Positions 52,554 to 63,606 of a stretch of 64,000 nucleotides of DNA are shown one piece after another. Position 1 is the first letter of the stretch; every line of letters starts with the position of its first letter. Source of the DNA: an uncultured Rikenella sp. (GTDB lineage Bacteria; Bacteroidota; Bacteroidia; Bacteroidales; VadinHA17); NCBI GenBank assembly GCA_964579645.1, contig CAZOHL010000003.1, positions 1,375 to 65,374 of the forward strand. The letters are read 5' to 3'. A model generated the notes under the pieces. The model was not told the origin of the DNA. It worked only from the letters and a program-made list of their open reading frames with translations, and did not search any database. A program made the position numbers and the translations under genes.

Positions 52554-53360
52554 ATGTTTGAATTTTCCGAAATACAAAACAACTACTACCTGCTGCCCCT
52601 GATAGGTTTTGTAATCGGAATTTTTGGAACCATACTGGGTGGAGGAGGTGGATTCTTCTTCATTCCAATTCTTACACTGTGGTTCGCAGTGCCGGCTCAG
52701 ACTGCCGTGATGACTTCACTTGTAGCCACATTGCCGATAACACTTGTTGGTTCTGTCAGCCATTACCGCATGAAAAACATTGATGTCAGGGTAGCTGCTG
52801 TATTCATTGCAGGCGGACTGATCGGGGCTGTTGCAGGTGCCAGGATTACAGGCTGGGTAACAGAAGCACAGTTAAAGGTCGCCTTTGGCATCTATTCCAT
52901 CCTGATGGGATTCGGGATTGCGCTGAGATCACGGAAGAAGAAAGAGACCGGCAACCTGGCTGAGGCCCTGAATAAGCATGAAAGCAACCGCATGATTGCA
53001 AAGGGGTCATTTTTCGGGCTGGTTGCGGGGACCATCACGGGTGCATTCGGTACAAGTGGCACAATGCCTGTGATCGCCGGTCTCTATTCAATGAAGATAC
53101 CACTTAAGGTTATTATCGGGACCTCTTTGCTCGTGGTCCTTTTCAACAGCATCTTCGCAATAAGCGCCCACCTGTTTATAGGCAGGGTAGATGTCACACT
53201 TGTCTCTTTCCTTACCGCCGGTTCGGTAATCGGCGCTTTGGGGGGGCCGGGGATTCTTTCCAGGATGAAGATCGGTAATAAGGCAGAATCGACTGCTGCA
53301 TTCTGGTATGCCGCAACGATGATAATTATAGGAATTCTTATGATACTGGGAAGAAACTGA
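52554..53360 (+). CDS. TauE/SafE-family anion (sulfite/sulfonate) exporter
   Basis: 268 aa with about 7-8 TM helices and an internally duplicated G-rich pattern (ILGGGGGFFFIP, GAFGTSGT). Confidence 0.65.
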   Translation: MFEFSEIQNNYYLLPLIGFVIGIFGTILGGGGGFFFIPILTLWFAVPAQTAVMTSLVATLPITLVGSVSHYRMKNIDVRVAAVFIAGGLIGAVAGARITGWVTEAQLKVAFGIYSILMGFGIALRSRKKKETGNLAEALNKHESNRMIAKGSFFGLVAGTITGAFGTSGTMPVIAGLYSMKIPLKVIIGTSLLVVLFNSIFAISAHLFIGRVDVTLVSFLTAGSVIGALGGPGILSRMKIGNKAESTAAFWYAATMIIIGILMILGRN

Positions 53361-53374
53361 GACTGTCAGGAACC

Positions 53375-54097
53375 ATGATCAGGACAATCTACATAATAAT
53401 CTTGATTTACTTTACCTTAGGAGGGGTGGGTTTCTATCTCATCAACAGGAAAAAGACTCCTGAAGCGGCAAGGGAAAGCTATGTCAAATTCGGAACATAT
53501 TTCCTGATCATCAATTTGTTGTTCTTCAGCATTGTAATCGACACTGTCATATTCAGGTTCATTACTGTTCTGATCATTATTGCAGGATTAACCGAACTGT
53601 CAACACTTTTTGCGAGAGCGGCACGGAGTCATGCTTTCTTTTTCATCCGGTCAATATTGATTTACAGCGTTTTCTCCATCCTTTTCTTCATTTTCGGATC
53701 GGGGGCACGGGACGAAATCTTATTCACCTTCCTGGTGCTTTCCATTTTTGACAGTTTCAGCCAGATCACCGGCCAGCTCTGGGGCCATCACAAGCTTATT
53801 CCTGGGATAAGTCCGGGGAAGACATGGGAAGGGCTGCTGGGTGGCTTATTTATATCACTTTTCAGCGCATGGCTGTTAAGAGACCTTGTAAGGGAGACTG
53901 TGCCTGAACTGATTATCTTCACTCTTGGCATCACAGGATTTGCTTTTCTTGGCGATCTGCTGTCATCGTATTACAAACGAAGGTACAAAGTCAAGGATTT
54001 CAATAATTTAATCCCGGGTCATGGAGGTTTCCTCGACAGGTTTGACAGTCTGATTGCAGGAGGTGCGTGGGTTGCTGTTTACTCATTGATAGTATGA
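53375..54097 (+). CDS. Phosphatidate cytidylyltransferase-family protein (CdsA-like, short)
   Basis: The C-terminal signature is SYYKRRYKVKDFNNLIPGHGGFLDRFDS. It also has ISPGKTWEG. Confidence 0.75.
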   Translation: MIRTIYIIILIYFTLGGVGFYLINRKKTPEAARESYVKFGTYFLIINLLFFSIVIDTVIFRFITVLIIIAGLTELSTLFARAARSHAFFFIRSILIYSVFSILFFIFGSGARDEILFTFLVLSIFDSFSQITGQLWGHHKLIPGISPGKTWEGLLGGLFISLFSAWLLRDLVRETVPELIIFTLGITGFAFLGDLLSSYYKRRYKVKDFNNLIPGHGGFLDRFDSLIAGGAWVAVYSLIV

Positions 54098-54115
54098 CAC
54101 TTAGAACAAATTGAT

Positions 54116-54793
54116 ATGGGAAACACAATTATCTTATCGTTTGTTTATCTGGCCGGGATAAGTATGTTATTGATCTTTAACGAATTAGTTTACAGAAAAT
54201 TCAGTCCTGAAGGTGAGGTAACGCGCAAGTTTGCACATTTCTCGTCTGTGCTTGCAACCTTGCCGTTTCCGTACTTTTTCCCTTCGCACTGGTATATCCT
54301 GGTACTTGCGGCATTATTTGCCTCGGTGCTGTTCATTACCAGGAGAGGGAAACTGCTCAGGTCTATTCACGGGATTGAAAGAAAATCGATTGGCAGCTAT
54401 CTTTTGCCCATTGCAATATATGTCACCTTCCTCATTGCCGAGCTGTCAGAAAATAAATTTCTCTTCATTCTTCCCATCCTGATTCTGGCTGTCTGTGATC
54501 CGCTGGCAGCGATTCTGGGCATGAGCAACACCCATTTTAACAGGAGGATCAGCATTGCCGGGATGACCCTGAACAAAACCTGGCTGGGAACCGGCGCGTT
54601 CCTGGTATCCAGTTTCGTGATCAGCATCCTGGCGCTCTATTTTTTCAGGGAGGTATTTGATTTCAAGACATTCTGGCTTGCTGCGCTTGTTGCCGTTGTG
54701 ACTATGTTTGGCGAACTGATAAGCTGGCGGGGCTCGGATAATCTGAGTATCCCGCTGAGTGCCGTGCTTGTACTGGTTTTATTCCTTGAGTGA
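54116..54793 (+). CDS. CTP-dependent polyprenol/phytol/dolichol kinase-like membrane protein (CTP_transf_1 superfamily)
   Basis: It has RKFAHF and CDPLAAILG...NKTWLGTGAF, which follows the D..A...G......KT..G pattern of the family. It is polytopic. Confidence 0.5.
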   Translation: MGNTIILSFVYLAGISMLLIFNELVYRKFSPEGEVTRKFAHFSSVLATLPFPYFFPSHWYILVLAALFASVLFITRRGKLLRSIHGIERKSIGSYLLPIAIYVTFLIAELSENKFLFILPILILAVCDPLAAILGMSNTHFNRRISIAGMTLNKTWLGTGAFLVSSFVISILALYFFREVFDFKTFWLAALVAVVTMFGELISWRGSDNLSIPLSAVLVLVLFLE

Positions 54794-54898
54794 TTGCTGA
54801 CAATACGTACTGAATATCTTAATGTGATTGTCGGCCCGCTAATCTTAAGTCACTGTATTAATGGTCATTGAAAATATCTCGGAAAAAAAAGTAACAAT

Positions 54899-55498
54899 AT
54901 GAAACAGATAATCTACAAGGGAGAGAATATTCTGAACGTGCCGAATCTGATCAGCCTTTACCGGTTCCTGGTATTTCCAGTTATACTTTTTATGGCACTG
55001 ACGGGCCGTGAAAACTGGTTTGTCATCCTGATCTGCATCAGTCTAGTAAGTGATATTTTTGACGGAAATATAGCCCGGATTTTCAAGCTGCAGACAAACT
55101 TCGGTGCAGCGCTCGATAATCTGGCTGACCTATGCACTTATGCCATGGCCCTGTTGGGCATGTTTCTTTTCAGGTGGTCAGAGATAAGACCTCACGCATG
55201 GATTCTGTATATTTTCCTCGGGATTTTCATCCTGAGCTATCTGGTTGCCTTTATCCGTTTCGGCAAGATTCCCGGCCTGCATCTTTATTCGGCTGTGTCA
55301 TGCGGTTATGCACAGGGGATTTTCTTCTTTATTCTGTTTGTTTTCGGCTTTTATCCCTGGCTGTATTACCTGGTGGTTACATGGGGGATTGTGGCATATA
55401 CTGAAAAGATACTGGTGCTCCTGAAGCTGGATGATATTAAAAGAGGGGTAAAGGGATTATACTGGCTTTTAAAAAAGGAAAGGATGACGCCCGACTGA
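54899..55498 (+). CDS. CDP-alcohol phosphatidyltransferase
   Basis: The complete signature is DIFDGNIARIFKLQTNFGAALDNLADL, matching D-G-x2-A-R-x8-G-x3-D-x3-D. Confidence 0.85.
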   Translation: MKQIIYKGENILNVPNLISLYRFLVFPVILFMALTGRENWFVILICISLVSDIFDGNIARIFKLQTNFGAALDNLADLCTYAMALLGMFLFRWSEIRPHAWILYIFLGIFILSYLVAFIRFGKIPGLHLYSAVSCGYAQGIFFFILFVFGFYPWLYYLVVTWGIVAYTEKILVLLKLDDIKRGVKGLYWLLKKERMTPD

Positions 55499-55635: not shown

Positions 55636-55643
55636 TATTTTTG
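55636..55643 (+). promoter_or_regulatory. Candidate -7 box TATTTTTG upstream of the FHA/kinase operon
   Basis: It matches TAnnTTTG and lies 46 nt upstream of the ATG at 55689, in a 190-bp AT-rich gap. Confidence 0.4.
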
Positions 55644-55688: not shown

Positions 55689-56339
55689 ATGAGATGTGAC
55701 AATTGTGGCTGGGATAATTCTGCCAACAGGGTAAGATGCGAAAAATGCAATACCAATCTCAGCGGTACGGAAAAGTCAGCTCCTGTTTCAGGGCAGGAAG
55801 CCGAAAACCTAAAAAAAACAATTAACGGAAGACAGCCTTCAGGCAATGACTACCTCGATTCACCAGGGGAGAGAGGAGAGAAGGTAACAACCAGGTGCAA
55901 AACCTGTGGTTATCCGGTGATAACAGGTGTTTCCCGGTGCCCTGAATGTGGAAATGTACTCCATTCAGATCGCGGGTCGGATGTGGAACCTGGTCCGGTA
56001 ATCTGGGGAGCCGGGCAAAAAACAATCGATCCGTTCAGAAGACCGGTACAGCCGAAGTTCTGCCTGCAGCCGCAATCCGGGGAAGATGAAATGGACCTTA
56101 AAGAGAAAAGCTATTCCGGTCACGAGGTGATACTTAACAGGGATAACCTTGAAGAAGGCAATATTACAATAACTGGAGGCCGCCAGGCTGTTATCACAAA
56201 CCGGGGCGGAAACTGGTTCATAGAAGACACAAGTCCCCGACAAACAACTTTCATTCAGGTTAATGGTTCAGTAAGACTGCAACCGGGTGATGTGATCCTG
56301 ATGGGTAACCGGAGATTTATCTTCAAACCCTGCGAATGA
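55689..56339 (+). CDS. Double zinc-ribbon protein with C-terminal degenerate FHA-like domain
   Basis: The ribbons are CDNCGWDNSANRVRCEKC and CKTCGYPVITGVSRCPEC. The C-terminus is VILNRDN...GGRQAVITNRGGNWFIEDTS..QTTFIQVNG...LQPGDVILMGNRRFIF, which has an FHA-like layout with non-canonical G-R and S-x-x-H positions. Confidence 0.6.
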   Translation: MRCDNCGWDNSANRVRCEKCNTNLSGTEKSAPVSGQEAENLKKTINGRQPSGNDYLDSPGERGEKVTTRCKTCGYPVITGVSRCPECGNVLHSDRGSDVEPGPVIWGAGQKTIDPFRRPVQPKFCLQPQSGEDEMDLKEKSYSGHEVILNRDNLEEGNITITGGRQAVITNRGGNWFIEDTSPRQTTFIQVNGSVRLQPGDVILMGNRRFIFKPCE

Positions 56340-57661
56340 AGGACGATTCTCCGGACAGTCTGGCCTCATACCAGATCCCTCAGCGATTCCTCCCCCAGGC
56401 AGGTGAGGTTATTGACAATTACAGGATCATAAAGATCCTTGGAGAAGGCACATTCGGCATTGTCTATAAGGTTGAAGAAGTGACCTCGGGTGATGTCTTT
56501 GCCCTCAAGCTGCTCAAACTATGGTCTATAGCTTATGAGGAAGAGCGGCGGCTTGTGCTTCAGCGCTTCGATCTTGAATATAAGACAGGTCTGATAGAAA
56601 GCGACTACCTGGTGTGTTCCAGGGGCTGTGGCCGGGCAAAGGGAAATCCTTATATCCTCATGGAATTTTGTCCGGGTGGCGACCTGAGAAAAGCCGGCGA
56701 TTCAGGGCTTTCCGCCGAAAGACTGTACCGTGCAGGCATAGAAATTCTTTTAGGCCTCAGGGACTTGCACGATAACGGCAAGATACACCGTGACCTCAAG
56801 CCGGATAATGTGCTTCTTGATGAGAAAGGGAGAGCGAAACTGACTGACTTTGGCATCTCCGGGCATAAAAATGTCCGTATGACAAAACGCAACCTTTTCG
56901 GTCAGCCTCAGGAAGTATTCGGAACCTACGCATACATGCCTCCCGAACAGCTAAAACCAAGGGATGCAACCAAGCTGCCTGCAACTGACATTTATTCTTT
57001 CGGAGTGCTTATTTTCGAATTGTTAACAGGAAAACTTCCATTCGGCCCCCTGAAAACAGAGTCAGACCTTGGTGAATACGTAAGCCGGGTAAATACCTCA
57101 CGATGGGACGACATCCGGACCCTGCGCCCGGACATAGATCATTCATGGGCTCGTGTGATAGAAAAATGTCTTCAGCCGGATTACCGGAAAAGATATGCCT
57201 CAGTCCTTGAAATACTTAACGATCTGGGTGTTGAGCCCGGGGCAGACCTTCCGGAACCGGAACCCGGGAAAACTGATTTTGCGTTGCAGGTGAAACAGGG
57301 GGAAGATTCCGGCAGGATATATAATCTGGAAGAATTGAAGAGATCGAAGGGTACTGCTAGGTTTCTGGTAGGGCGGAATGATGAAGAGGAGGCTATTTTC
57401 AACGACGTCGATATCAGGGAAACACCCCCTGACGGAAAAAACTATTATATCTCGAGGAAGCAGGCGACAATAGAACATGACCCTTCAACCGGCAGATGGT
57501 ACCTCAGAGACGGACAGTGGGCAAGAGAGGAAAGAACCTGGAAAAATTCACTTAACGGGTCTTTTGTGAACTCCTACAGGGCAGGAGAGGAGGGGTATCC
57601 TCTGAATCCGGGCGATATAATTACGCTGGGTGAAACCACACTCAAGGTAACTTTTGTATGA
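56336..57661 (+). CDS. Soluble Hanks-type Ser/Thr protein kinase with C-terminal FHA domain
   Basis: Kinase motifs are GEGTFGIVYKV, VFALKLLK, HRDLKPDNVLL, DFGIS and YMPPEQ. The FHA domain is FLVGRNDEE...ISRKQATIEHD...WYLRDG...SLNGSFVN...PGDIITLGETTLKV. No TM helix is present. The start overlaps the upstream stop (ATGA). Confidence 0.85.
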   Translation: MKDDSPDSLASYQIPQRFLPQAGEVIDNYRIIKILGEGTFGIVYKVEEVTSGDVFALKLLKLWSIAYEEERRLVLQRFDLEYKTGLIESDYLVCSRGCGRAKGNPYILMEFCPGGDLRKAGDSGLSAERLYRAGIEILLGLRDLHDNGKIHRDLKPDNVLLDEKGRAKLTDFGISGHKNVRMTKRNLFGQPQEVFGTYAYMPPEQLKPRDATKLPATDIYSFGVLIFELLTGKLPFGPLKTESDLGEYVSRVNTSRWDDIRTLRPDIDHSWARVIEKCLQPDYRKRYASVLEILNDLGVEPGADLPEPEPGKTDFALQVKQGEDSGRIYNLEELKRSKGTARFLVGRNDEEEAIFNDVDIRETPPDGKNYYISRKQATIEHDPSTGRWYLRDGQWAREERTWKNSLNGSFVNSYRAGEEGYPLNPGDIITLGETTLKVTFV

Positions 57662-57723: not shown

Positions 57724-59190
57724 ATGACAAAAGAAACCACAATCAACGAGCCTAATCGTTTCTCCAAATCGGTTGGAGCCGGAATGAAATCAGTTTTCGG
57801 ATCCAAAGGCAGGAGCTATTTCGTACTTGAGCACCTCGACTCATCAAAAAAACACAAAAAGGGTGAAAGCCAGGAAATAATTATTGACCACATTGAGATA
57901 GGGCGCGATCCGAAATGCCAGGTCGTTTTCGCCGAAGATTTTCCGACAGTTAGCAGGCGCCATGCATCAATCACCCGTGAAGGTGACAAATGGGTTCTCA
58001 AGCAACTTTCAGAAAAAAATCCGACCCTGGTAAACGGAAAACCTATAGCCAAATCATGGTTTCTGCAGTCAGGTGATGAAATTAAGTTTTCCTATGAAGG
58101 ACCTTCGGTCAGGTTCTTTGTCCCAGGCAACAACACCGTGGGCACGCTTGGGTTTACAAAGCGGCTGAACCTCTTCAGAAAGCAGGCTTTGCGTCCATAT
58201 AAAGCAGCGATGTCCATCCTTGCAGCCGTATTTGTCCTGGCATTTCTCGGATTGGGATATTTTATCCGGCAGCAGTCAAAAGTAATCGAGACTCAGAACA
58301 CAATGCTTTCCGATCTGAAAACTGTAACTGAGCAACAGGCTGCAGAGCTTATAGAACAGAACCGGAAAAACGAGGAACTTGTAAGTTCACTGAAAGAGAA
58401 GATCAGGACCATTGAGAGTGTTCAGGTCGAACAGTCTTCCCGTCTGGCCTCCACCCAGGCCGATGTAAGTGTTGAAGCAATTTATCCGAGCGTATTTTAT
58501 CTTTATTGCCAGGGTATTTCGATAAGGATGCCTGATGGAACAGAATACAGTGCAGATGATTTTGGCTGGTCGGGTACCGGATTCCTCCTCGATGACGGAA
58601 GATTGGTGACTGCCCGCCATGTGGTAGAACCATGGTACTATCCAAGTTCTTCAGAAGATCCCTCACTGGGCATCAACGCGATGATACAGATGGGTGCTGT
58701 CCTTGATTACACCCTGGTTGCCGTTTCGCCCGGAGGAGCAGCATACAATTTAAGAGGTGATTCTTTCCGGATCAATAAATCAAAGGACCAGACCGTCACC
58801 CTGTCAGACGGCAATGTTGTAAAACTTGCTCCGTTGCCTGATGATTCAGACTGGGCCTATGCAACAACCAACCTCAGGGGCACCCTTCAGATTGATAATC
58901 AGCTTGCGGGTTCCCTTCAAACGCAAAGCGAACTCCACATACTGGGGTATCCTCTTAGCCTTGGTGCAACCAACCCTGATGATATTTCTCCGCTTTACAG
59001 CACAACACGGGTTGCCAGGACAGGCTTGCATGACGGTCTCATCTACACAACCGACAGGAACTTTGACCATGGGAACTCGGGTGGACCTGTAATGTACTAT
59101 CAGAACGGAAGCTACAAGGTAGTGGGAATTGTCTCAGCCGGTACCGGCGACGCTGTTGGATTTATTGTGCCAGTCTCAGCTCTCTATTAA
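57724..59190 (+). CDS. FHA domain - TM helix - coiled coil - trypsin-like (S1/Trypsin_2) serine protease
   Basis: The FHA domain is IEIGRDPKCQVVF...VSRRHASITREGDKWVLKQLS.KNPTLVNG...LQSGDEIKF. The TM helix is AAMSILAAVFVLAFLGLGYFI. The protease triad context is TARHVV (His), SDWAY (Asp) and HGNSGGPV (Ser). Confidence 0.8.
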   Translation: MTKETTINEPNRFSKSVGAGMKSVFGSKGRSYFVLEHLDSSKKHKKGESQEIIIDHIEIGRDPKCQVVFAEDFPTVSRRHASITREGDKWVLKQLSEKNPTLVNGKPIAKSWFLQSGDEIKFSYEGPSVRFFVPGNNTVGTLGFTKRLNLFRKQALRPYKAAMSILAAVFVLAFLGLGYFIRQQSKVIETQNTMLSDLKTVTEQQAAELIEQNRKNEELVSSLKEKIRTIESVQVEQSSRLASTQADVSVEAIYPSVFYLYCQGISIRMPDGTEYSADDFGWSGTGFLLDDGRLVTARHVVEPWYYPSSSEDPSLGINAMIQMGAVLDYTLVAVSPGGAAYNLRGDSFRINKSKDQTVTLSDGNVVKLAPLPDDSDWAYATTNLRGTLQIDNQLAGSLQTQSELHILGYPLSLGATNPDDISPLYSTTRVARTGLHDGLIYTTDRNFDHGNSGGPVMYYQNGSYKVVGIVSAGTGDAVGFIVPVSALY

Positions 59191-59272: not shown

Positions 59273-62203
59273 ATGAACCTTAAGGAAAATGCACTATTTG
59301 CCGGACGTTACCTGCTGCTGAAACTGATTGGTGTGGGAGGATTCTCTGAAGTATGGCTGGCCACCGACCAGATGACAGAGGATACAAGGGTCGCCATTAA
59401 AGTTTTCGTTCCGGACAAAGGCCTGGACGAAGACGGGATTCACCAGTTCCGGAAGGAGTATGCCCTCACCCAGCCCCTGAACCATTCAAACCTGCTTAAA
59501 GCAAACTATTTCGATATATTCGAGTCTTCGCCTTACCTGGTGATGCCTTTCATGGAAAACGGGTCGCTCAGCAAACTGATGTACAAGAAAGGGACTTTCA
59601 GTGAAGAGGAGATCGTCGAGATCATAAGGCAGATCGGCTCGGGGATGGCCTATCTTCACAGGAACAACATCGTTCACCAGGACATCAAGCCGGACAATAT
59701 TCTTGTTGACCGGGAGGACAATTACCTTCTGACGGACTTCGGGATAAGCAGTAAAATGAGGAATACCCTGACACGTCATTCCACCAGTAAAACTGCGATG
59801 ACAGTATCGTACGCGCCACCTGAGCGTTTTGGCAAGTACCCGCAGACAACACCTGCAGGTGATATTTTCTCCTTTGGTGTGATGATGTATGAACTCACCA
59901 CAGGCGAGGTTCCCTGGATGGGTGCCGGCGGAGTGGTCCTCAGAAGTGACGATCAGGTGCCCTTGATCCCTGAAACCTACTCACCCGCGCTTTCTTCGAT
60001 CATTGAGAAATGCATGTCGGTTGACCCGGCAAACCGACCCACCGCTCGCGATCTTGCTGACTTTGCAAACGATTATTTCTACAAAAAAAGCCAGCCTCCT
60101 GCACCAGTCAAGGGAGGGAAGAAGACTGTTCTTCTCAATCATGATGCTGTACAGTATGATCAGCCACCTTCCGGAGAAAAGCGATCCGGTACCCGCAAGG
60201 GGAGTGAAACCGTGATAGACAACAGACAGGGGCAGAAGGGAAAGATTAAAGCAACTGTAGCGGGGGCTTCATCAAAGGAACAGGCATACCAGGCTGATTC
60301 GCAGGAGACTGTAAAATCACGTAAAAACCGCAGACCCGGACTGAAAGTAATCATTCCTGCTGCCTGCCTGGTTGTTGCTGCCGGAGCCTTCGTATTCTGG
60401 AATTTCAGCCGGACAAAGGTCGTTTATTACAAAAACTATGTTGAAGAATGGGGCGTTCCGCAGGGCATCCATGAGCTGACCGCCGAGGAGGTCAGCAGCC
60501 GTAATGCAAGCTACAAATTTGTCTTCTCAAAGGGTAAATTGAGGGAGATGAGCCGGGTCAACAGTAATGGATCCATCTCACCGCACAACGACTCTGAGCA
60601 GTTGGAACGGCCGGATCTCGCAACTTTTGTCTATAACAGGAACGGTGACCTTGATTATACGGAGGTTAAAGACAGAAATGGAATCGTTTACCTGGCAGAT
60701 TACGACCTGAAGGGAAAATCGGTAAGCTTTACCTACAACGATGTCTTAAGAACTCCGTATTACCTTACCGGCCGAACCTCGGCCTTTAAAGAAAATCCAT
60801 TTGCCACAAAGGGAAAGGTTAAAGGCAGCATTTCACGCTTTAACCTCACTTTTGACGACAAAGGCAGAGTTGTACAGGTTCTGTTTGCAAACCCGGACAA
60901 CATCAGCACCGGTGACCAGGATGCCGTTTACGGAAGGAAATACCTTTACGATGAAAGAGGCAACCTTACTCAGAAAACACTGATTGGAAGGGATGGCGGT
61001 AACGAAAACAACAACTCATTGATAAGCATTTCCAGGTATAAGTTTGATCAGGAAGACAACTGGATCTCTTCGGAATGGATTGACAGGGACAATAAGCCGG
61101 CACTCTGCAATAATGGCTTTTTCAGGGAGGAAAATACATTTGATACTTTTGGGAACATTGTTAAGGTTCTTCATTTTGACAGGAAGAACAATCTTTGTTT
61201 AACGTCTGATCTAGGCATTGCCGGCAATGTGCTGCAATACAACTCCAGTGGTCAGTGTATCAGGCAGGAATTTACTGACATTGCCGGGAAACTGACCCTG
61301 TCGAAATACGGAATGGCAATTGTAAAGTACACATATGACGAGTCTGGGAATATATCCAGGTATGAATACTTCGATGTAAATGACCAGCCGTGCCTGAGCA
61401 GGAACGGAGTGTTCGCAATTGCCTATAATTATGACAGCAGGGGTAACCAGACGGAATACTGGAACTACAACCTGGAAAACAAGTATTGCATCAACACCGA
61501 GAACGGCATTGCCGGTGAGACATTGACATATGATGCAGGCGGGAATGTTGTCAAGGCCCGCAATTTTAACGCAAACAGGGAACCACTGAATTCGGAATAC
61601 TATTACGCCGGGGTGGATCTTCAATATGACCTGCATAATAACATTCTGGAGCGTAAGCTGATAGTCCCTGAAAGATTACGGGCAGCCAATCCTGAATATA
61701 GGGATGTATCTGCACTGATTATCAGGTATAAGTACGACCTGCGCAATAATATCATTGAGGAGTCTTATCATGATCAGAATGGCGCTCCTTTCCTGTACAG
61801 CAAGGATTATCACGGCTCTTTGTCGGAATATGATGAGCGGGGAAATGTAACAAAGGTTAGCTATTTTGGATTAAACAGGGAACCTGCACGCGTGACGGTC
61901 CAGGCCATTTATGTAAAAAGACAATACGACCGGAAAAGCAATCTGATAGAAGAATCGTATTACGATAAAAACGATCAGCCCACCTATAACTACCCGGGTG
62001 GTTTTGCCGGATTTACAGCTACATATAACGACAGAAATCTTCAGACAAGCTGGAAACATTTTGATGTAAACCGTCAGCTTGCCGGTCTTAATGCTTCCGT
62101 CGTCGGAGCCGTCAGTACTTACGATGAAAATGGTACACTTATCGAAACCTATTACATCAACAAGAATCAGGAAAAGGTTGACTGGCGTGGCAACAGGATT
62201 TAA
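59273..62203 (+). CDS. Membrane Ser/Thr protein kinase (non-RD, HQD) with ~600-aa extracytoplasmic YD/RHS-like repeat domain
   Basis: Kinase motifs are GVGGFSEVWLA, VAIKVF, HQDIKPDNILV, DFGIS and YAPPER. A low-complexity K/Q/S linker is followed by the TM helix LKVIIPAACLVVAAGAFVFW. At least 9 repeats of the form x-Y-D-x-x-G-N-h-h-x-x-x-h-h-D-x-x-x-x-P follow (YTYDESGNISRYEYFDVNDQP, YNYDSRGNQTEYWNYN, LTYDAGGNVVKARNFNANREP, YKYDLRNNIIEESYHDQNGAP, SEYDERGNVTKVSYFGLNREP, RQYDRKSNLIEESYYDKNDQP, STYDENGTLIETYYINKNQE). Confidence 0.8.
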   Translation: MNLKENALFAGRYLLLKLIGVGGFSEVWLATDQMTEDTRVAIKVFVPDKGLDEDGIHQFRKEYALTQPLNHSNLLKANYFDIFESSPYLVMPFMENGSLSKLMYKKGTFSEEEIVEIIRQIGSGMAYLHRNNIVHQDIKPDNILVDREDNYLLTDFGISSKMRNTLTRHSTSKTAMTVSYAPPERFGKYPQTTPAGDIFSFGVMMYELTTGEVPWMGAGGVVLRSDDQVPLIPETYSPALSSIIEKCMSVDPANRPTARDLADFANDYFYKKSQPPAPVKGGKKTVLLNHDAVQYDQPPSGEKRSGTRKGSETVIDNRQGQKGKIKATVAGASSKEQAYQADSQETVKSRKNRRPGLKVIIPAACLVVAAGAFVFWNFSRTKVVYYKNYVEEWGVPQGIHELTAEEVSSRNASYKFVFSKGKLREMSRVNSNGSISPHNDSEQLERPDLATFVYNRNGDLDYTEVKDRNGIVYLADYDLKGKSVSFTYNDVLRTPYYLTGRTSAFKENPFATKGKVKGSISRFNLTFDDKGRVVQVLFANPDNISTGDQDAVYGRKYLYDERGNLTQKTLIGRDGGNENNNSLISISRYKFDQEDNWISSEWIDRDNKPALCNNGFFREENTFDTFGNIVKVLHFDRKNNLCLTSDLGIAGNVLQYNSSGQCIRQEFTDIAGKLTLSKYGMAIVKYTYDESGNISRYEYFDVNDQPCLSRNGVFAIAYNYDSRGNQTEYWNYNLENKYCINTENGIAGETLTYDAGGNVVKARNFNANREPLNSEYYYAGVDLQYDLHNNILERKLIVPERLRAANPEYRDVSALIIRYKYDLRNNIIEESYHDQNGAPFLYSKDYHGSLSEYDERGNVTKVSYFGLNREPARVTVQAIYVKRQYDRKSNLIEESYYDKNDQPTYNYPGGFAGFTATYNDRNLQTSWKHFDVNRQLAGLNASVVGAVSTYDENGTLIETYYINKNQEKVDWRGNRI

Positions 62204-62306: not shown

Positions 62307-63512
62307 ATGGCAAGCAACACCACCCTCATGATCGCCGCACGAACCGATGTCGGCAGGGTCCGTGACCACAACGAGGACAATTTCATAGTTTGCCCGGACC
62401 TTGAACAGCAGAAATGGCATTTCGAAAACAACAGGATCGTCAGCCCTGGCGAAGCGGGGACTCTCCTGGTGGTGGCTGACGGGATGGGGGGGATGAATGC
62501 CGGCGAGGTTGCATCCAGGATTGCGGTTGATGCAATTAAATCCGTTTTCGGCGAGAAAATAAAACCCGGCTTTGTTCCTGACGACAACCTCATTGATAGC
62601 ACCCTGAAGGCTTCGGTAAAGCTTGCCAACAAGGAAATACTCAGAGAACAGCAACGTGATCCGGAGACCGAAGGTATGGGCACCACCATTGTTATTGCAT
62701 GGATCATAGGTGGTCGCCTTTATTGTGCCTGGTGCGGTGACAGCCGTTGTTATATTTACAATCCCGGTCTTGCCTCAGACAGTGAGCGGGCGGGCCGGTT
62801 TGCGGAAAGCCGGCACCATGTTTCGGGGAACCTTGCCCAGGTCACCAAAGACCACAGTGAGGTTCAGGAGCTGGTCGACAGGGGTATACTTACGGTCGAG
62901 CAGGCATTTTATCATCCGAACAGCAATATAATTACACGCAGCCTAGGTAGTGACGAGGGAGGAGCAACGCCGGAGCTGTTCACATGCGACATCAAACCTG
63001 GCGACCGGATACTTCTTTGCAGTGACGGACTGTGCGGACTGCTGACTGACGAGCAGATATGTGAGGGGGTGAAGGCTGAGCCAGACCCCGGCGAATGTGT
63101 GCGGAGCCTGGTAGATGCCGCCAACGATGCCGGCGGAAATGATAATATTACGGTCGTAATGACCGACGTGAAGGAGGTTGGGTCAGTGGCAACTGTTACA
63201 GTCAGTGAGAAACGCCGGAAAAGGTACTTTCCGGGAATCCTGCTGGCTGCTGTTGCAATGTTGCTTACAGGCTACTTAATTTTCAGGGAAAAGGATAACG
63301 GATTCCTTGTCCTGGTTTCTCCGTCAGCCTTTGTCGATGCGAGCGGCGATACTATAACGGTCCCGGCTTCAGATTCCCTAAGCCTCTCGCCGGGACGGCA
63401 GTTCACCCTAGAAATGATTGCCTGTGACAGCACTGAGGTCAGGGATGGGGGTGATTCCCTGGCAATACTTGACAAAGGGGCAACTGTTTACATAAGGCCA
63501 CAGGAGAAATAA
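62307..63512 (+). CDS. Membrane-anchored PP2C-family Ser/Thr phosphatase with ~75-aa extracytoplasmic tail
   Basis: Motifs are RTDVGRVRDHNEDNF, VADGMGG, CGDSRCY, LCSDGL and GGNDNITVV. The TM helix is YFPGILLAAVAMLLTGYLIF, followed by a 75-aa C-terminal domain. Confidence 0.85.
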   Translation: MASNTTLMIAARTDVGRVRDHNEDNFIVCPDLEQQKWHFENNRIVSPGEAGTLLVVADGMGGMNAGEVASRIAVDAIKSVFGEKIKPGFVPDDNLIDSTLKASVKLANKEILREQQRDPETEGMGTTIVIAWIIGGRLYCAWCGDSRCYIYNPGLASDSERAGRFAESRHHVSGNLAQVTKDHSEVQELVDRGILTVEQAFYHPNSNIITRSLGSDEGGATPELFTCDIKPGDRILLCSDGLCGLLTDEQICEGVKAEPDPGECVRSLVDAANDAGGNDNITVVMTDVKEVGSVATVTVSEKRRKRYFPGILLAAVAMLLTGYLIFREKDNGFLVLVSPSAFVDASGDTITVPASDSLSLSPGRQFTLEMIACDSTEVRDGGDSLAILDKGATVYIRPQEK

Positions 63513-63569: not shown

Positions 63570-63606
63570 AAAGAGGCTGCCCCTTTTGAGACAGCCTCTT
63601 TTCTTT
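63570..63606 (+). terminator. Rho-independent terminator closing the FHA/kinase operon
   Basis: AAAGAGGCTG-ccccttttgaga-CAGCCTCTTTTCTTTC forms a stem followed by a T-rich tail, 58 nt after the PP2C stop. Confidence 0.75.

What the first reader, a model, noticed from the sequence alone, without database searches (positions are those of the whole stretch)
57724..59190. FHA-TM-coiled-coil-trypsin protease: a protease with a cytoplasmic phospho-Thr reader
A canonical FHA domain (GR...SRRHA...NG) lies N-terminal to one TM helix (nt about 58204-58266). A ~55-aa heptad-like Q/E/K-rich segment follows, then a Trypsin_2-like domain (nt about 58471-59187) with TARHVV, SDWAY and GNSGGP. This places reader and protease on opposite faces of the inner membrane. 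The architecture implies that kinase activity in the cytoplasm recruits or oligomerises a periplasmic protease. I do not know of a characterised example of this coupling.
Basis: partly seen in the sequence, partly recalled or inferred. Interest (0 to 1): 0.65.

Follow-up and report, generated by a model that had tools for sequence, protein, structure and literature searches.

The report
Membrane protease with cytoplasmic phosphothreonine reader
This gene encodes a membrane-anchored serine protease that should sit in the periplasm while carrying a phospho-threonine-binding (FHA) domain in the cytoplasm; it belongs to a kinase/phosphatase operon conserved across Bacteroidota (including human-gut contigs) for which I found no functional study.

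Summary
Window 57724-59190 (+) is a 488-aa ORF. It has a canonical FHA domain, one TM helix (residues 161-181, positive charge on the N-side), a polar helical stalk and an HtrA-like S1 protease domain. The triad H299/D376/S452 aligns with the HtrA His/Asp/Ser and is invariant in 30 aligned homologues. The heptad periodicity of the stalk is not statistically supported.

The protein is not rare. More than 2000 same-architecture homologues were found, forming 308 clusters at 50% identity, in Bacteroidia, Saprospiria and Flavobacteriia. Its operon context is nearly invariant:
- kinase-FHA upstream in 55/56 loci
- PP2C downstream in 59/59
- a second, membrane kinase downstream in 49/51
- a zinc-ribbon-FHA protein upstream in 40/46

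Some lineages add an ExbB/ExbD-like pair and a secreted ~300-aa protein; the window has the minimal five-gene form.

A 2008 survey listed the architecture once (B. thetaiotaomicron NP_811686.1). I found no functional study.

Most likely mechanism (inferred): Thr phosphorylation by the operon kinases docks or clusters the protease through its FHA domain, and PP2C resets it. A Thr-bearing N-terminal tail, present in 120/120 homologues, suggests a GarA-like self-binding switch.

Verdict: a new variant of known kinds, of moderate interest.

The parts
57724..59190 (+). FHA-TM-stalk-S1 protease gene (488 aa)
   Evidence: ORF list and translation. Pfam FHA plus Trypsin_2/Trypsin. More than 2000 homologues with the same architecture.
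57724..57756 (+). Disordered N-terminal tail (residues 1-11, MTKETTINEPN) with Thr5/Thr6; candidate phospho-acceptor
   Evidence: pLDDT is below 50 for residues 1-8. The tail before the conserved FSKSxGAG motif contains at least one Thr in 120/120 homologues; in two of them the motif search failed and the first 15 residues were used. The phospho-acceptor role is an inference by analogy with GarA/OdhI.
57757..57807 (+). Conserved N-terminal helix (residues 12-28, FSKSVGAGMKSVFG motif)
   Evidence: AF2 helix at 12-24. S16 and G18 are invariant, and mean column identity is 0.63.
57808..58125 (+). FHA domain (residues 29-134; Pfam core 58-122), cytoplasmic
   Evidence: PF00498 E 1.4e-17. It aligns to GarA and Rv0020c-type FHA structures. 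G60, R61, S77, H80, N99, T101 and N104 are invariant in 30 homologues. AF2 gives a beta-sandwich with pLDDT above 90.
58126..58203 (+). Cytoplasmic juxtamembrane segment (residues 135-160, ...RLNLFRKQALRPYK), the most conserved region
   Evidence: Mean column identity is 0.76. F151, P158 and Y159 are invariant. AF2 helix at 144-154. It carries 6 K/R in the 16 residues before the TM helix.
58204..58266 (+). Single transmembrane helix (residues 161-181)
   Evidence: Kyte-Doolittle maximum 2.39, with a positive-inside charge bias. Exactly one strongly hydrophobic segment is found in 187 of 212 homologues.
58267..58470 (+). Polar helical periplasmic stalk (residues 182-249), poorly conserved and variable in length
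   Evidence: AF2 predicts a helix to residue 234 with low pLDDT. Column identity is 0.30. The family median linker is about 80 aa, and the heptad test is not significant.
58471..59187 (+). HtrA-like S1 (chymotrypsin-fold) serine protease domain, predicted periplasmic, no PDZ
   Evidence: Pfam Trypsin_2/Trypsin. Foldseek top hits are HtrA1, the IgA1-protease trypsin-like domain, DegP and DegS (E about 1e-9). A family profile matches M. tuberculosis HtrA1 at E 1.2e-6.
58618..58620 (+). Catalytic His299 codon (TARHVV)
   Evidence: Aligned to the HtrA catalytic His. Invariant.
58849..58851 (+). Catalytic Asp376 codon (SDWAY)
   Evidence: Aligned to the HtrA catalytic Asp in KTDLAVL. Invariant.
59077..59079 (+). 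Catalytic Ser452 codon (GNSGGP)
   Evidence: Aligned to the HtrA HGNSGGP motif. Invariant.
55689..56339 (+). Operon gene 1: double zinc-ribbon protein with a C-terminal, degenerate FHA domain (216 aa)
   Evidence: Pfam Zn_Ribbon_1/DZR plus FHA at 22 bits. Present upstream in 40/46 related loci. Its stop overlaps the next gene's start by 4 nt.
56336..57661 (+). Operon gene 2: soluble Hanks-type Ser/Thr kinase with C-terminal FHA (441 aa)
   Evidence: Pkinase E 1.8e-42 plus FHA E 4.7e-10. HRD and DFG motifs are present. No hydrophobic segment. Found upstream, same strand, within 3.5 kb in 55/56 related loci; directly adjacent in most.
59273..62203 (+). Operon gene 4: membrane Ser/Thr kinase (976 aa) with one TM helix (about 355-379) and a ~600-aa YD/RHS-repeat ectodomain
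   Evidence: Pkinase E 3.1e-50 and an RHS_repeat hit. TM helix. HQD (non-RD) and DFG motifs. YD-type repeats are visible in the sequence. A second kinase lies downstream in 49/51 loci.
62307..63512 (+). Operon gene 5: PP2C Ser/Thr phosphatase with a C-terminal TM helix (about 307-328) and a ~70-aa periplasmic tail
   Evidence: PP2C_2 E 1e-13. NCBIfam Stp1_PP2C_phos scores 224 bits, just under its 230 cut-off. TM helix. PP2C lies downstream in 59/59 loci.
55636..55643 (+). Candidate Bacteroides-type -7 promoter motif TATTTTTG (TAnnTTTG), 46 nt before the first operon gene, inside a 190-nt intergenic gap
   Evidence: Read directly in the sequence. The consensus is recalled from the literature and was not tested; a short motif like this often occurs by chance.
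63570..63601 (.). 14-bp GC-rich hairpin 58 nt after the PP2C stop; likely the operon terminator (bidirectional)
   Evidence: Terminator scan. The next ORF in the near-identical genome L001 is on the opposite strand.

Best explanation
The gene encodes a bitopic inner-membrane protein. It has an N-terminal cytoplasmic FHA (phospho-threonine-binding) domain, one TM helix, a flexible polar helical stalk and a catalytically competent HtrA-like serine protease domain in the periplasm. This anatomy is shown, or follows directly, from the sequence.

The protein is the proteolytic component of a five-gene Hanks-kinase/PP2C signalling operon conserved across Bacteroidota: ZnR-FHA, kinase-FHA, FHA-TM-protease, membrane kinase with ectodomain, and membrane PP2C.

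Inferred mechanism:
1. The membrane kinase senses an envelope cue with its ectodomain.
2. Thr phosphorylation follows, on the kinases' own linkers and/or on the protease's conserved N-terminal Thr tail.
3. This creates docking sites for the FHA domain.
4. Docking tethers or clusters the protease next to the kinase/phosphatase complex. This controls where, and in what oligomeric state, the periplasmic protease acts; HtrA-type proteases are active as oligomers.
5. The PP2C phosphatase reverses the state.

The N-terminal Thr tail may act like the GarA/OdhI tail. When phosphorylated, it would bind an FHA domain in cis (off-switch) or in trans (head-to-tail clustering).

The TM helix and stalk are the least conserved parts. 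I therefore favour recruitment or clustering over a conformational signal passed through the membrane.

The substrates are unknown. Candidates are the periplasmic parts of the operon's own kinase and phosphatase, or, in other lineages, the co-encoded secreted ~300-aa protein.
For: Architecture and topology.

FHA competence: G60, R61, S77, H80 and N99 are invariant in 30 homologues at about 40-47% identity. The domain aligns to the GarA FHA.

Protease competence: H299, D376 and S452 are invariant. They align with the His/Asp/Ser of M. tuberculosis HtrA1. The fold matches HtrA1, DegP and DegS.

Functional linkage to phospho-signalling, among related loci with enough flank:
- kinase-FHA upstream in 55/56
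- PP2C downstream in 59/59
- a second kinase downstream in 49/51
- ZnR-FHA upstream in 40/46

The window's genes are co-directional, with a 4-nt overlap and gaps of 62-103 nt. Both kinases keep their catalytic motifs. Three of the five proteins are bitopic with cytoplasmic signalling domains, which is consistent with a membrane complex.

The N-terminal tail contains at least one Thr in 120/120 homologues and is disordered.

Conservation profile: FHA 0.72 and juxtamembrane 0.76, above protease 0.58, TM 0.45 and stalk 0.30.

Precedents:
- M. xanthus GltG is a bitopic FHA(cytoplasm)-TM-periplasmic-domain protein in an envelope machine (PMC3169522).
- From memory: Rv1747 FHA-mediated clustering, T6SS Fha1/PpkA/PppA, and the GarA self-binding switch.
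Against: No experiment or computation here shows the following:
- binding of the FHA domain to any phospho-site
- phosphorylation of the N-terminal Thr
- oligomerisation
- any substrate

The heptad pattern expected for a coiled-coil oligomerisation stalk is not significant in the window protein. The stalk is modelled with low confidence.

The direction of information flow cannot be deduced from sequence; it could run from kinase to protease or from protease to kinase.

Topology is inferred from hydropathy and charge bias only. No dedicated predictor or reporter fusion was used.

Conserved synteny shows functional linkage, not mechanism.
Confidence: 0.45

Rival explanations
1. Outside-in or feedback model. 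The periplasmic protease acts upstream of, or on, the signalling proteins. For example, it could trim the ectodomain of the membrane kinase or the periplasmic tail of the PP2C, or the secreted ~300-aa partner in other lineages, and so switch kinase signalling on or off. In this model the FHA domain only keeps the protease attached to the active (phosphorylated) kinase, so that cleavage is targeted to it. This would work like DegS-type site-1 cleavage, but addressed by a cytoplasmic tether.
For: DegS and HtrA are the closest folds and sequence relatives. The kinase and the phosphatase both expose periplasmic segments. In most lineages a signal-peptide protein is encoded directly after the protease. 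Kinase ectodomains are highly variable between lineages (YD repeats here; Ank or WG repeats elsewhere), as expected for sensors that might be processed.
Against: No cleavage site or substrate is identified. The window lacks the secreted partner, so that protein cannot be the universal substrate. This model is not exclusive of the best explanation, because both need FHA-pThr docking.
Confidence: 0.25
2. Scaffold model. The protease is a constitutively active, housekeeping periplasmic quality-control enzyme. Its FHA domain serves mainly as a membrane-anchored scaffold that nucleates the cytoplasmic kinase/FHA complex. Phosphorylation does not regulate proteolysis.
For: The FHA and juxtamembrane regions are more conserved than the protease. 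The operon contains three FHA proteins, and some lineages have four. This suggests a multivalent pThr/FHA scaffold. YscD-type and GltG-type FHA-TM proteins are structural components.
Against: This model offers no reason for the strict, phylum-wide fusion of an invariant catalytic triad to the FHA domain. If the two functions were independent, the genes would be expected to occur separately.
Confidence: 0.15
3. Conflict or anti-phage system. The kinase/phosphatase/FHA module is a phage-sensing switch (like KKP, Stk2 or PD-T4-6 kinase defences), and the protease is its effector.
For: The PADLOC models mad6, PD-T4-6 and Stk2 match the kinases. The protease domain matches the protease of RT-Protease_XI (E 1e-11). 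KKP modules combine two kinases, one of them with an FHA domain, and a PP2C (PMC11341870). The Phaeodactylibacter locus has a caspase-FGE-sulfatase gene nearby.
Against: The kinase matches are generic Pkinase similarity. No PADLOC model matched the PP2C or the ZnR-FHA protein. The defining cold-shock-domain kinase of KKP is absent. The operon has the same order in essentially every related locus sampled, across three classes of Bacteroidota. This is the pattern of a core system rather than a patchy defence island. The GC content of the region is like the rest of the window. A periplasmic effector protease is unusual for abortive infection.
Confidence: 0.07
4. Pseudo-enzyme or mis-topology. Either the C-terminal domain is a non-catalytic binding module, or the hydrophobic segment is not membrane-spanning and the whole protein is cytoplasmic.
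For: Pfam protease scores are modest (31 and 27 bits). Topology was not tested with a dedicated predictor.
Against: His, Asp, Ser and the GNSGGP oxyanion-hole motif are invariant and align to the HtrA catalytic residues. The hydrophobic segment has a Kyte-Doolittle value of 2.39 over 19 residues with a strong charge asymmetry. It is present as the single such segment in 187/212 homologues.
Confidence: 0.03

Closest known systems
DegS / HtrA-family membrane-anchored periplasmic serine proteases (E. coli DegS; M. tuberculosis HtrA1)
   Same: Both have an N-terminal single TM anchor, a periplasmic chymotrypsin-fold protease with a His/Asp/Ser triad and an HGNSGGP motif. HtrA proteins are the best sequence and fold matches.
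   Different: There is no PDZ domain, and the regulatory domain is a cytoplasmic FHA domain instead. NCBIfam HtrA/DegP models score 16-18 bits against cut-offs of 416-470. DegS is activated by periplasmic peptides (from memory); here the likely input is cytoplasmic phosphorylation.
M. xanthus GltG (PglI) of the Agl-Glt gliding machinery
   Same: Both are bitopic proteins with a cytosolic FHA domain, one TM helix and a periplasmic functional domain. GltG works with a TolQR/ExbBD-type motor (PMC3169522). In several Bacteroidota the FHA-TM-protease gene directly follows an ExbB/ExbD-like pair.
   Different: The periplasmic domain of GltG is TonB-C-like, not a protease. The window's operon has no motor genes, and no gliding genes are linked.
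T3SS inner-ring protein YscD/EscD/PrgH family
   Same: The order is FHA-like cytoplasmic domain, single TM helix, periplasmic domain. Pfam Yop-YscD_cpl matches residues 46-121 at 43 bits against a cut-off of 33.
   Different: The FHA model scores higher (64 bits). The canonical pThr-binding residues are kept here, whereas YscD-type domains lack them (from memory). The periplasmic part is a protease, not ring-building motifs, and there are no T3SS genes.
GarA / OdhI FHA regulators of Actinobacteria
   Same: These are the closest solved FHA structures by sequence. They have a disordered N-terminal tail carrying Thr residues (window: K-E-T-T; GarA's ETTS motif is recalled from memory) that could bind the FHA domain after phosphorylation.
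   Different: GarA and OdhI are small soluble metabolic regulators. The NCBIfam OdhI model scores 30 bits against a cut-off of 200. Tail phosphorylation is untested here.
Actinobacterial fhaA-fhaB-pstP-...-pknA-pknB cell-envelope signalling cluster (FhaB/FipA)
   Same: It is an operon combining two FHA proteins, a membrane PP2C and two Hanks kinases. The best NCBIfam match of this FHA domain is FhaB/FipA. This comparison is from memory of that cluster.
   Different: That cluster has no protease and different accessory genes (rodA, pbpA). The score is 43 bits against a cut-off of 125, so this protein is not an orthologue.
MarP (Rv3671c) membrane serine protease
   Same: It is a membrane-anchored periplasmic S1 protease involved in envelope stress. 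There is a weak NCBIfam match.
   Different: MarP has four TM helices and no FHA domain (from memory). The score is 22 bits against a cut-off of 250.

Membership tests
FHA domain (Pfam PF00498) | Profile match above the gathering score | tested here: met
   64.3 bits against 20.7, E 1.4e-17, residues 58-122.
FHA domain (Pfam PF00498) | Conserved pThr-binding residues (Gly-Arg, Ser-x-x-His, Asn) | tested here: met
   G60, R61, S77, H80 and N99 are present and invariant in 30 homologues. They align to the GarA FHA domain.
FHA domain (Pfam PF00498) | Binds phospho-threonine peptides | not testable with these tools
   This needs ITC or pull-down experiments with pThr peptides.
S1 (chymotrypsin-fold) serine peptidases | Profile match, two-barrel fold and an aligned His/Asp/Ser triad | tested here: met
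   Trypsin_2 scores 31.4 against 27.6 and Trypsin 26.9 against 20.6. Foldseek gives E about 1e-9 to HtrA1, chymotrypsin and DegP. H299, D376 and S452 align to the HtrA1 triad and are invariant.
S1 (chymotrypsin-fold) serine peptidases | Proteolytic activity | not testable with these tools
   This needs the purified ectodomain, with and without the S452A change.
HtrA/DegP/DegS (S1C) family | Protease domain followed by at least one PDZ domain | tested here: not met
   There is no PDZ hit and the protein ends 3 residues after the Pfam Trypsin match. This definition of the family is from established knowledge.
HtrA/DegP/DegS (S1C) family | NCBIfam equivalog or subfamily score | tested here: not met
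   SerProtHtrA scores 17.9 against 470, degP_htrA_DO 16 against 416, and HhoA_HhoB_HtrA 16.7 against 450.
MarP family serine protease | NCBIfam NF033740 score; four N-terminal TM helices | tested here: not met
   22.4 bits against 250. There is only one TM helix.
T3SS YscD/EscD/PrgH | Cytoplasmic FHA-like domain, TM helix and periplasmic ring-building domains, within a T3SS locus | tested here: not met
   The Yop-YscD_cpl profile matches (43 bits) but overlaps the stronger FHA match. The periplasmic part is a protease. The neighbours are kinases and a phosphatase.
T6SS TagH/Fha | TIGR03354 score; T6SS gene context | tested here: not met
   32.8 bits against 120. There are no T6SS genes in the operon.
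GarA/OdhI | NCBIfam OdhI score; small soluble protein | tested here: not met
   30.1 bits against 200. The protein is a 488-aa membrane protein. Only the idea of an N-terminal Thr tail is shared.
KKP (kinase-kinase-phosphatase) prophage module | PP2C plus a kinase-FHA plus a kinase fused to a cold-shock domain | tested here: not met
   The second kinase carries a TM helix and a YD-repeat ectodomain, with no CSD. The definition is from PMC11341870.
Bacteroidota FHA-TM-S1 protease family (unnamed; annotated 'FHA domain-containing protein') | Full-length homology with the same domain order and the kinase-FHA / PP2C operon context | tested here: met
   Homologues are 39-47% identical over 94-100% of the length. 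There are 308 representative clusters at E<=1e-30. Synteny counts are 55/56, 59/59 and 49/51.

The most novel reading that the evidence does not exclude
This would be an 'inside-out' signalling device: cytoplasmic Ser/Thr phosphorylation, read by an FHA domain, directly controls proteolysis in the periplasm. It would do so through a single polypeptide that spans the inner membrane, as the output arm of a phylum-wide Bacteroidota envelope-signalling operon. In the fuller, possibly ancestral, form of the operon the same protein would be the TonB-like partner of a dedicated ExbB/ExbD-type proton motor. Proteolysis in the periplasm would then be gated both by phosphorylation and by proton-motive force.
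Probability: 0.25. Interest if true: 0.75.

Novelty: new variant of a known kind. Interest (0 to 1): 0.55.

Why it matters
Hanks-type kinase signalling in Bacteroidota appears essentially unexplored (my own knowledge; my literature searches found nothing), although the phylum is abundant in the human gut. This operon was found in nearly every related locus sampled, including human-gut contigs, so it is probably a core system.

It contains an unusual output. A protease that should act in the periplasm is physically fused to a cytoplasmic phospho-threonine reader. If phosphorylation controls that protease, it would be a direct route from cytoplasmic kinase activity to remodelling of the cell envelope. 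I know of no characterised bacterial example of this.

The hypothesis is readily testable in B. thetaiotaomicron, which has a homologue (NP_811686.1). The system could bear on envelope stress tolerance, colonisation and antibiotic or bile resistance in gut Bacteroidales.

Tried and rejected
1. Literature searches (nine of the ten allowed). They combined FHA with trypsin, serine protease, Bacteroidetes, Bacteroides, P. gingivalis, Flavobacterium and guessed BT277x locus tags.
   - No functional study was found.
   - The only mention was a 2008 catalogue line.
   - The BT277x tags were my own extrapolation from the accession number and hit only unrelated crystallography papers.

2. Aravind-lab conflict-system papers. 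They mention FHA and trypsin domains separately, not this fusion.

3. Anti-phage reading. PADLOC gave only generic kinase hits plus a protease-domain similarity to RT-Protease_XI. I rejected it as the main explanation because the operon is conserved and syntenic across the phylum.

4. Link to the phospholipid genes just upstream (TauE, two CdsA-like genes, a CDP-alcohol phosphatidyltransferase). Rejected: they are neighbours only in the window and its near-identical genome L001.

5. The secreted ~300-aa partner of other lineages as a degenerate protease paralogue. hhalign gave only a 30-column match (E 0.0077, probability 5%), which is not significant.

6. Coiled-coil heptad test of the stalk: not significant.

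7. Genome-collection scan with a single-sequence query. It found only the near-identical Rikenella MAG and one unrelated FHA hit, so taxonomy had to come from source names.

8. The afdb50 fold library was unavailable.

A sequence alignment to HtrA was used instead.
Full report
**1. What is there**

Window 57724..59190 (+) is a 488-codon ORF with an ATG start. Its N-terminus aligns from Met1 with homologues, so the start is right.

Pfam finds three domain models:
- FHA at residues 58-122 (E 1.4e-17, 64 bits)
- Trypsin_2 at residues 284-469 (31.4 bits, cut-off 27.6)
- Trypsin at residues 285-485 (26.9 bits, cut-off 20.6)

One segment, residues ~158-183, is strongly hydrophobic (Kyte-Doolittle 2.39). 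It corresponds exactly to nt 58204-58266. The only other window above threshold is a single marginal 19-mer (466-484, KD 1.71) inside the protease domain. The sixteen residues before the TM segment carry six K/R and no acidic residue; the fifteen after it carry two K/R. There is no N-terminal signal peptide. With one TM helix and this charge asymmetry, the expected topology is FHA in the cytoplasm and protease in the periplasm.

AlphaFold2, run with a 30-sequence alignment (mean pLDDT 83.8), gives the following:
- a disordered tail (residues 1-8)
- a short helix (12-24)
- a high-confidence beta-sandwich (33-132)
- a short juxtamembrane helix (144-154)
- one long helix (157-234) whose confidence falls along the stalk
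- a confident two-barrel protease (257-483)

The stalk is Q/E/K-rich. A simple a/d heptad test is no better than shuffled sequence (8 of 16 positions; 29% of shuffles reach it). 'Coiled coil' therefore remains a guess.

**2. Are both domains functional?**

In an alignment of 30 homologues at 40-47% identity, these residues are invariant:
- the FHA phospho-threonine-binding residues G60, R61, S77, H80 and N99
- the protease residues H299, D376 and S452, with the whole G450-P455 (GNSGGP) motif

A profile of the protease domain matches M. tuberculosis HtrA1 (E 1.2e-6). It places H299, D376 and S452 on that enzyme's His (TNNHVI), Asp (KTDLAVL) and Ser (HGNSGGP). Foldseek against the PDB returns HtrA1, an IgA1-protease trypsin-like domain, chymotrypsin, DegP and DegS at E about 1e-9.

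So neither domain looks degenerate. There is no PDZ domain, and the curated HtrA, DegP and MarP models fall far below their cut-offs. The enzyme is HtrA-like in fold but is not a member of those families.

**3. How common is it, and in whom?**

The window comes from a Rikenella-like Bacteroidales genome. A MAG contig labelled uncultured Rikenella sp. carries the same operon at 97% protein identity.

The word-index search found 2082 proteins with E<=0.001 among the 8000 candidates scored. All but two of the 120 best listed carry both FHA and trypsin-family Pfam hits (P0037 has no trypsin hit on record), with coverage of 94-100%. The exhaustive search of 1.84 billion cluster representatives found 308 representatives at E<=1e-30.

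Source names place members in three classes:
- Bacteroidales
- Phaeodactylibacter, Saprospiria
- Lutibacter, Flavobacteriia

Several related loci come from contigs labelled human-gut metagenome. Databases call the protein only 'FHA domain-containing protein' or 'S1-C subfamily serine protease'.

**4. Context**

In the window the gene is the third of five co-directional genes:
1. A double zinc-ribbon protein with a degenerate C-terminal FHA domain (55689-56339).
2. A soluble Hanks kinase with a C-terminal FHA domain (56336-57661). Its start overlaps the previous stop by 4 nt.
3. The FHA-TM-protease.
4. A membrane Hanks kinase with a ~600-aa YD-repeat ectodomain and a non-RD HQD catalytic loop (59273-62203).
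5. A PP2C phosphatase with a C-terminal TM helix and a short periplasmic tail (62307-63512).

A 190-nt gap containing a TAnnTTTG-like motif precedes the first gene. A strong hairpin follows the last.

I fetched 80 related metagenomic loci plus genomic ones and located homologues of each operon protein by tblastn. Among loci with enough flanking DNA:
- the kinase-FHA gene lies upstream on the same strand in 55/56
- a PP2C lies downstream in 59/59
- a further kinase lies downstream in 49/51
- the zinc-ribbon-FHA gene lies upstream in 40/46

This is very tight linkage for proteins only ~40% identical. It argues for one functional unit.

The phospholipid genes upstream in the window are not conserved neighbours.

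Other lineages add components:
- In 8/56 loci, an ExbB/MotA-family protein sits directly before the protease gene. It comes with a partner that has an ExbD/TolR-like Asp-containing TM helix (NIFSVSFLDLLSG...) and a coiled coil.
- In other loci, a small protein with an N-terminal FHA domain sits at that position.
- In most loci, a ~280-315-aa signal-peptide protein sits between the protease and the PP2C.

The window has none of these. It carries the minimal five-gene core.

**5. Extra anatomy**

- In all 120 listed homologues, the stretch before the conserved 'FSKSxGAGxKS' motif contains at least one Thr, usually at position 4-7 (in two sequences the motif search failed and the first 15 residues were used). 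In the window this tail reads M-T-K-E-T-T, and it is disordered in the model.
- The cytoplasmic juxtamembrane segment (…RLxLFRQQALRPYK) is the most conserved part of the protein, with mean column identity 0.76. The FHA domain follows at 0.72.
- The TM helix (0.45) and stalk (0.30) are the least conserved. Stalk length varies, with a median of about 80 aa.

**6. Mechanism**

Shown: a catalytically competent-looking S1 protease and a canonical FHA domain are joined through one TM helix. The gene is inseparable from two kinases and a PP2C.

Inferred: the FHA domain docks on pThr sites made by the operon kinases, and PP2C removes them. Docking tethers or clusters the protease at the kinase/phosphatase complex, and so sets where and in what oligomeric state it cuts.

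The conserved Thr tail could work like the GarA/OdhI tail (from memory). After phosphorylation it would bind an FHA domain in cis (off) or in trans (clustering).

A conformational signal sent through the membrane would be expected to need a conserved TM helix and stalk. Their poor conservation therefore favours recruitment or clustering. I give this specific mechanism 0.45.

The main rival (0.25) reverses the logic. The protease processes the periplasmic parts of the kinase or phosphatase, or of the secreted partner, and the FHA domain merely addresses it to the active kinase.

The other rivals score lower:
- a pure scaffold role (0.15)
- an anti-phage reading (0.07); PADLOC similarities are generic and the KKP hallmark is absent
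- a pseudo-enzyme or mis-topology reading (0.03)

**7. Comparison with known systems**

Membrane-anchored periplasmic S1 proteases are known (DegS, MarP). Bitopic proteins with a cytoplasmic FHA domain, a TM helix and a periplasmic domain are also known. Examples are the YscD-type T3SS ring proteins, whose Pfam model matches here at 43 bits under the stronger FHA hit, and M. xanthus GltG. GltG combines a cytosolic FHA domain with a periplasmic TonB-like domain and works with a TolQR-type motor (PMC3169522).

The GltG parallel is notable because some Bacteroidota place this protease gene right after an ExbB/ExbD-like pair.

Operons of FHA proteins, a PP2C and two Hanks kinases recall the actinobacterial fhaA-fhaB-pstP-pknA-pknB cluster (from memory). 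The best NCBIfam hit of this FHA domain is FhaB/FipA, but it is far below the cut-off.

What is not described, as far as I could find, is an FHA domain fused to a protease across the membrane. A 2008 survey lists 'FHA-FHA-Tryp' once, for B. thetaiotaomicron NP_811686.1, with the generic label 'metabolism and signalling' (PMC2605481). The other eight literature searches found no functional work. The library searched lacks most subscription-journal papers, so absence there is not proof.

**8. Verdict**

The topological reading is well supported. The 'kinase recruits/oligomerises protease' idea is plausible and untested.

The thing itself is a common, already-annotated but apparently uncharacterised Bacteroidota protein family. 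It is a new variant built from known parts, not a new kind of system.

Its interest lies in three points:
- the phylum-wide five-gene operon
- the cross-membrane pairing of a phospho-reader with a protease
- a tractable homologue in B. thetaiotaomicron

Interest score: 0.55.

Noticed in passing
window 55689-56339 (+): This is a double zinc-ribbon protein with a long low-complexity linker and a C-terminal FHA-like domain. The usual GR / SxxH / N positions are replaced (LNRDN..., ITGGRQAVI, SPRQTT). The substitutions are conserved in the Phaeodactylibacter and Bacteroidales orthologues (ITGKVQAVI, ITGKTQASI). It may therefore not bind pThr in the canonical way. The architecture resembles cyanobacterial FraH (from memory).
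   Followed up: partly
window 59273-62203 (+): The membrane kinase has HQD instead of HRD in the catalytic loop, making it a non-RD kinase. Its ~600-aa ectodomain is built from YD/RHS-type repeats (YxYDxxGN...). Orthologous positions in other lineages carry quite different extra domains (Ank repeats; WG repeats on the PP2C).
   Followed up: partly
L003 8361-9995; L005 8405-9997; also L021, L022, L024, L032, L042, L063: In some Bacteroidota the protease gene is directly preceded by an ExbB/MotA-family gene. With it comes a partner that has an ExbD/TolR-like Asp-containing TM helix followed by a coiled coil and a small C-terminal domain (split into two ORFs in L003). The window lacks both genes.
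   Followed up: partly
e.g. L005 11563-12498, L003 11678-12541, L065 9947-10846: A ~280-315-aa signal-peptide protein with no Pfam hit and an N-terminal 'NQQLIEDAV'-like motif is encoded between the protease and the PP2C in most related loci. It is absent from the window. It shows a weak, non-significant profile similarity to the first barrel of the protease (E 0.0077, probability 5%). It could be a substrate, an inhibitor or a pseudo-protease partner.
   Followed up: partly
L011-L019, L023, L026 (between the kinase-FHA and the protease gene): A further small protein (~200-260 aa) with an N-terminal canonical FHA domain (MNQITIGRN...TVSGxHATI...HSTNGTYVNG) occupies the position that the ExbB/ExbD pair has elsewhere.
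   Followed up: no
window 52554-55498 (+): A cluster of four genes lies just upstream: a TauE/SafE-family exporter, two CdsA-like cytidylyltransferases and a CDP-alcohol phosphatidyltransferase. They are not conserved neighbours of the operon in other loci.
   Followed up: yes
window 63570-63601: A near-perfect 14-bp GC-rich hairpin (AAAGAGGCTG...CAGCCTCTTT) follows the PP2C gene. It is probably a bidirectional terminator shared with the convergent gene seen in L001.
   Followed up: no
L005 2716-5818: In Phaeodactylibacter, a caspase (Peptidase_C14)-FGE-sulfatase fusion and a 401-aa FHA protein lie just upstream of the operon. Such caspase-FGS fusions are discussed as conflict-system effectors (PMC7159879). 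The association was not seen in other loci.
   Followed up: no
window 57724-59187, PADLOC scan: The protease domain scores better against the protease part of the defence-associated 'RT-Protease_XI' models (42 bits, E 1e-11) than against Pfam Trypsin_2 (31 bits). This hints that these two protease subfamilies are related.
   Followed up: no
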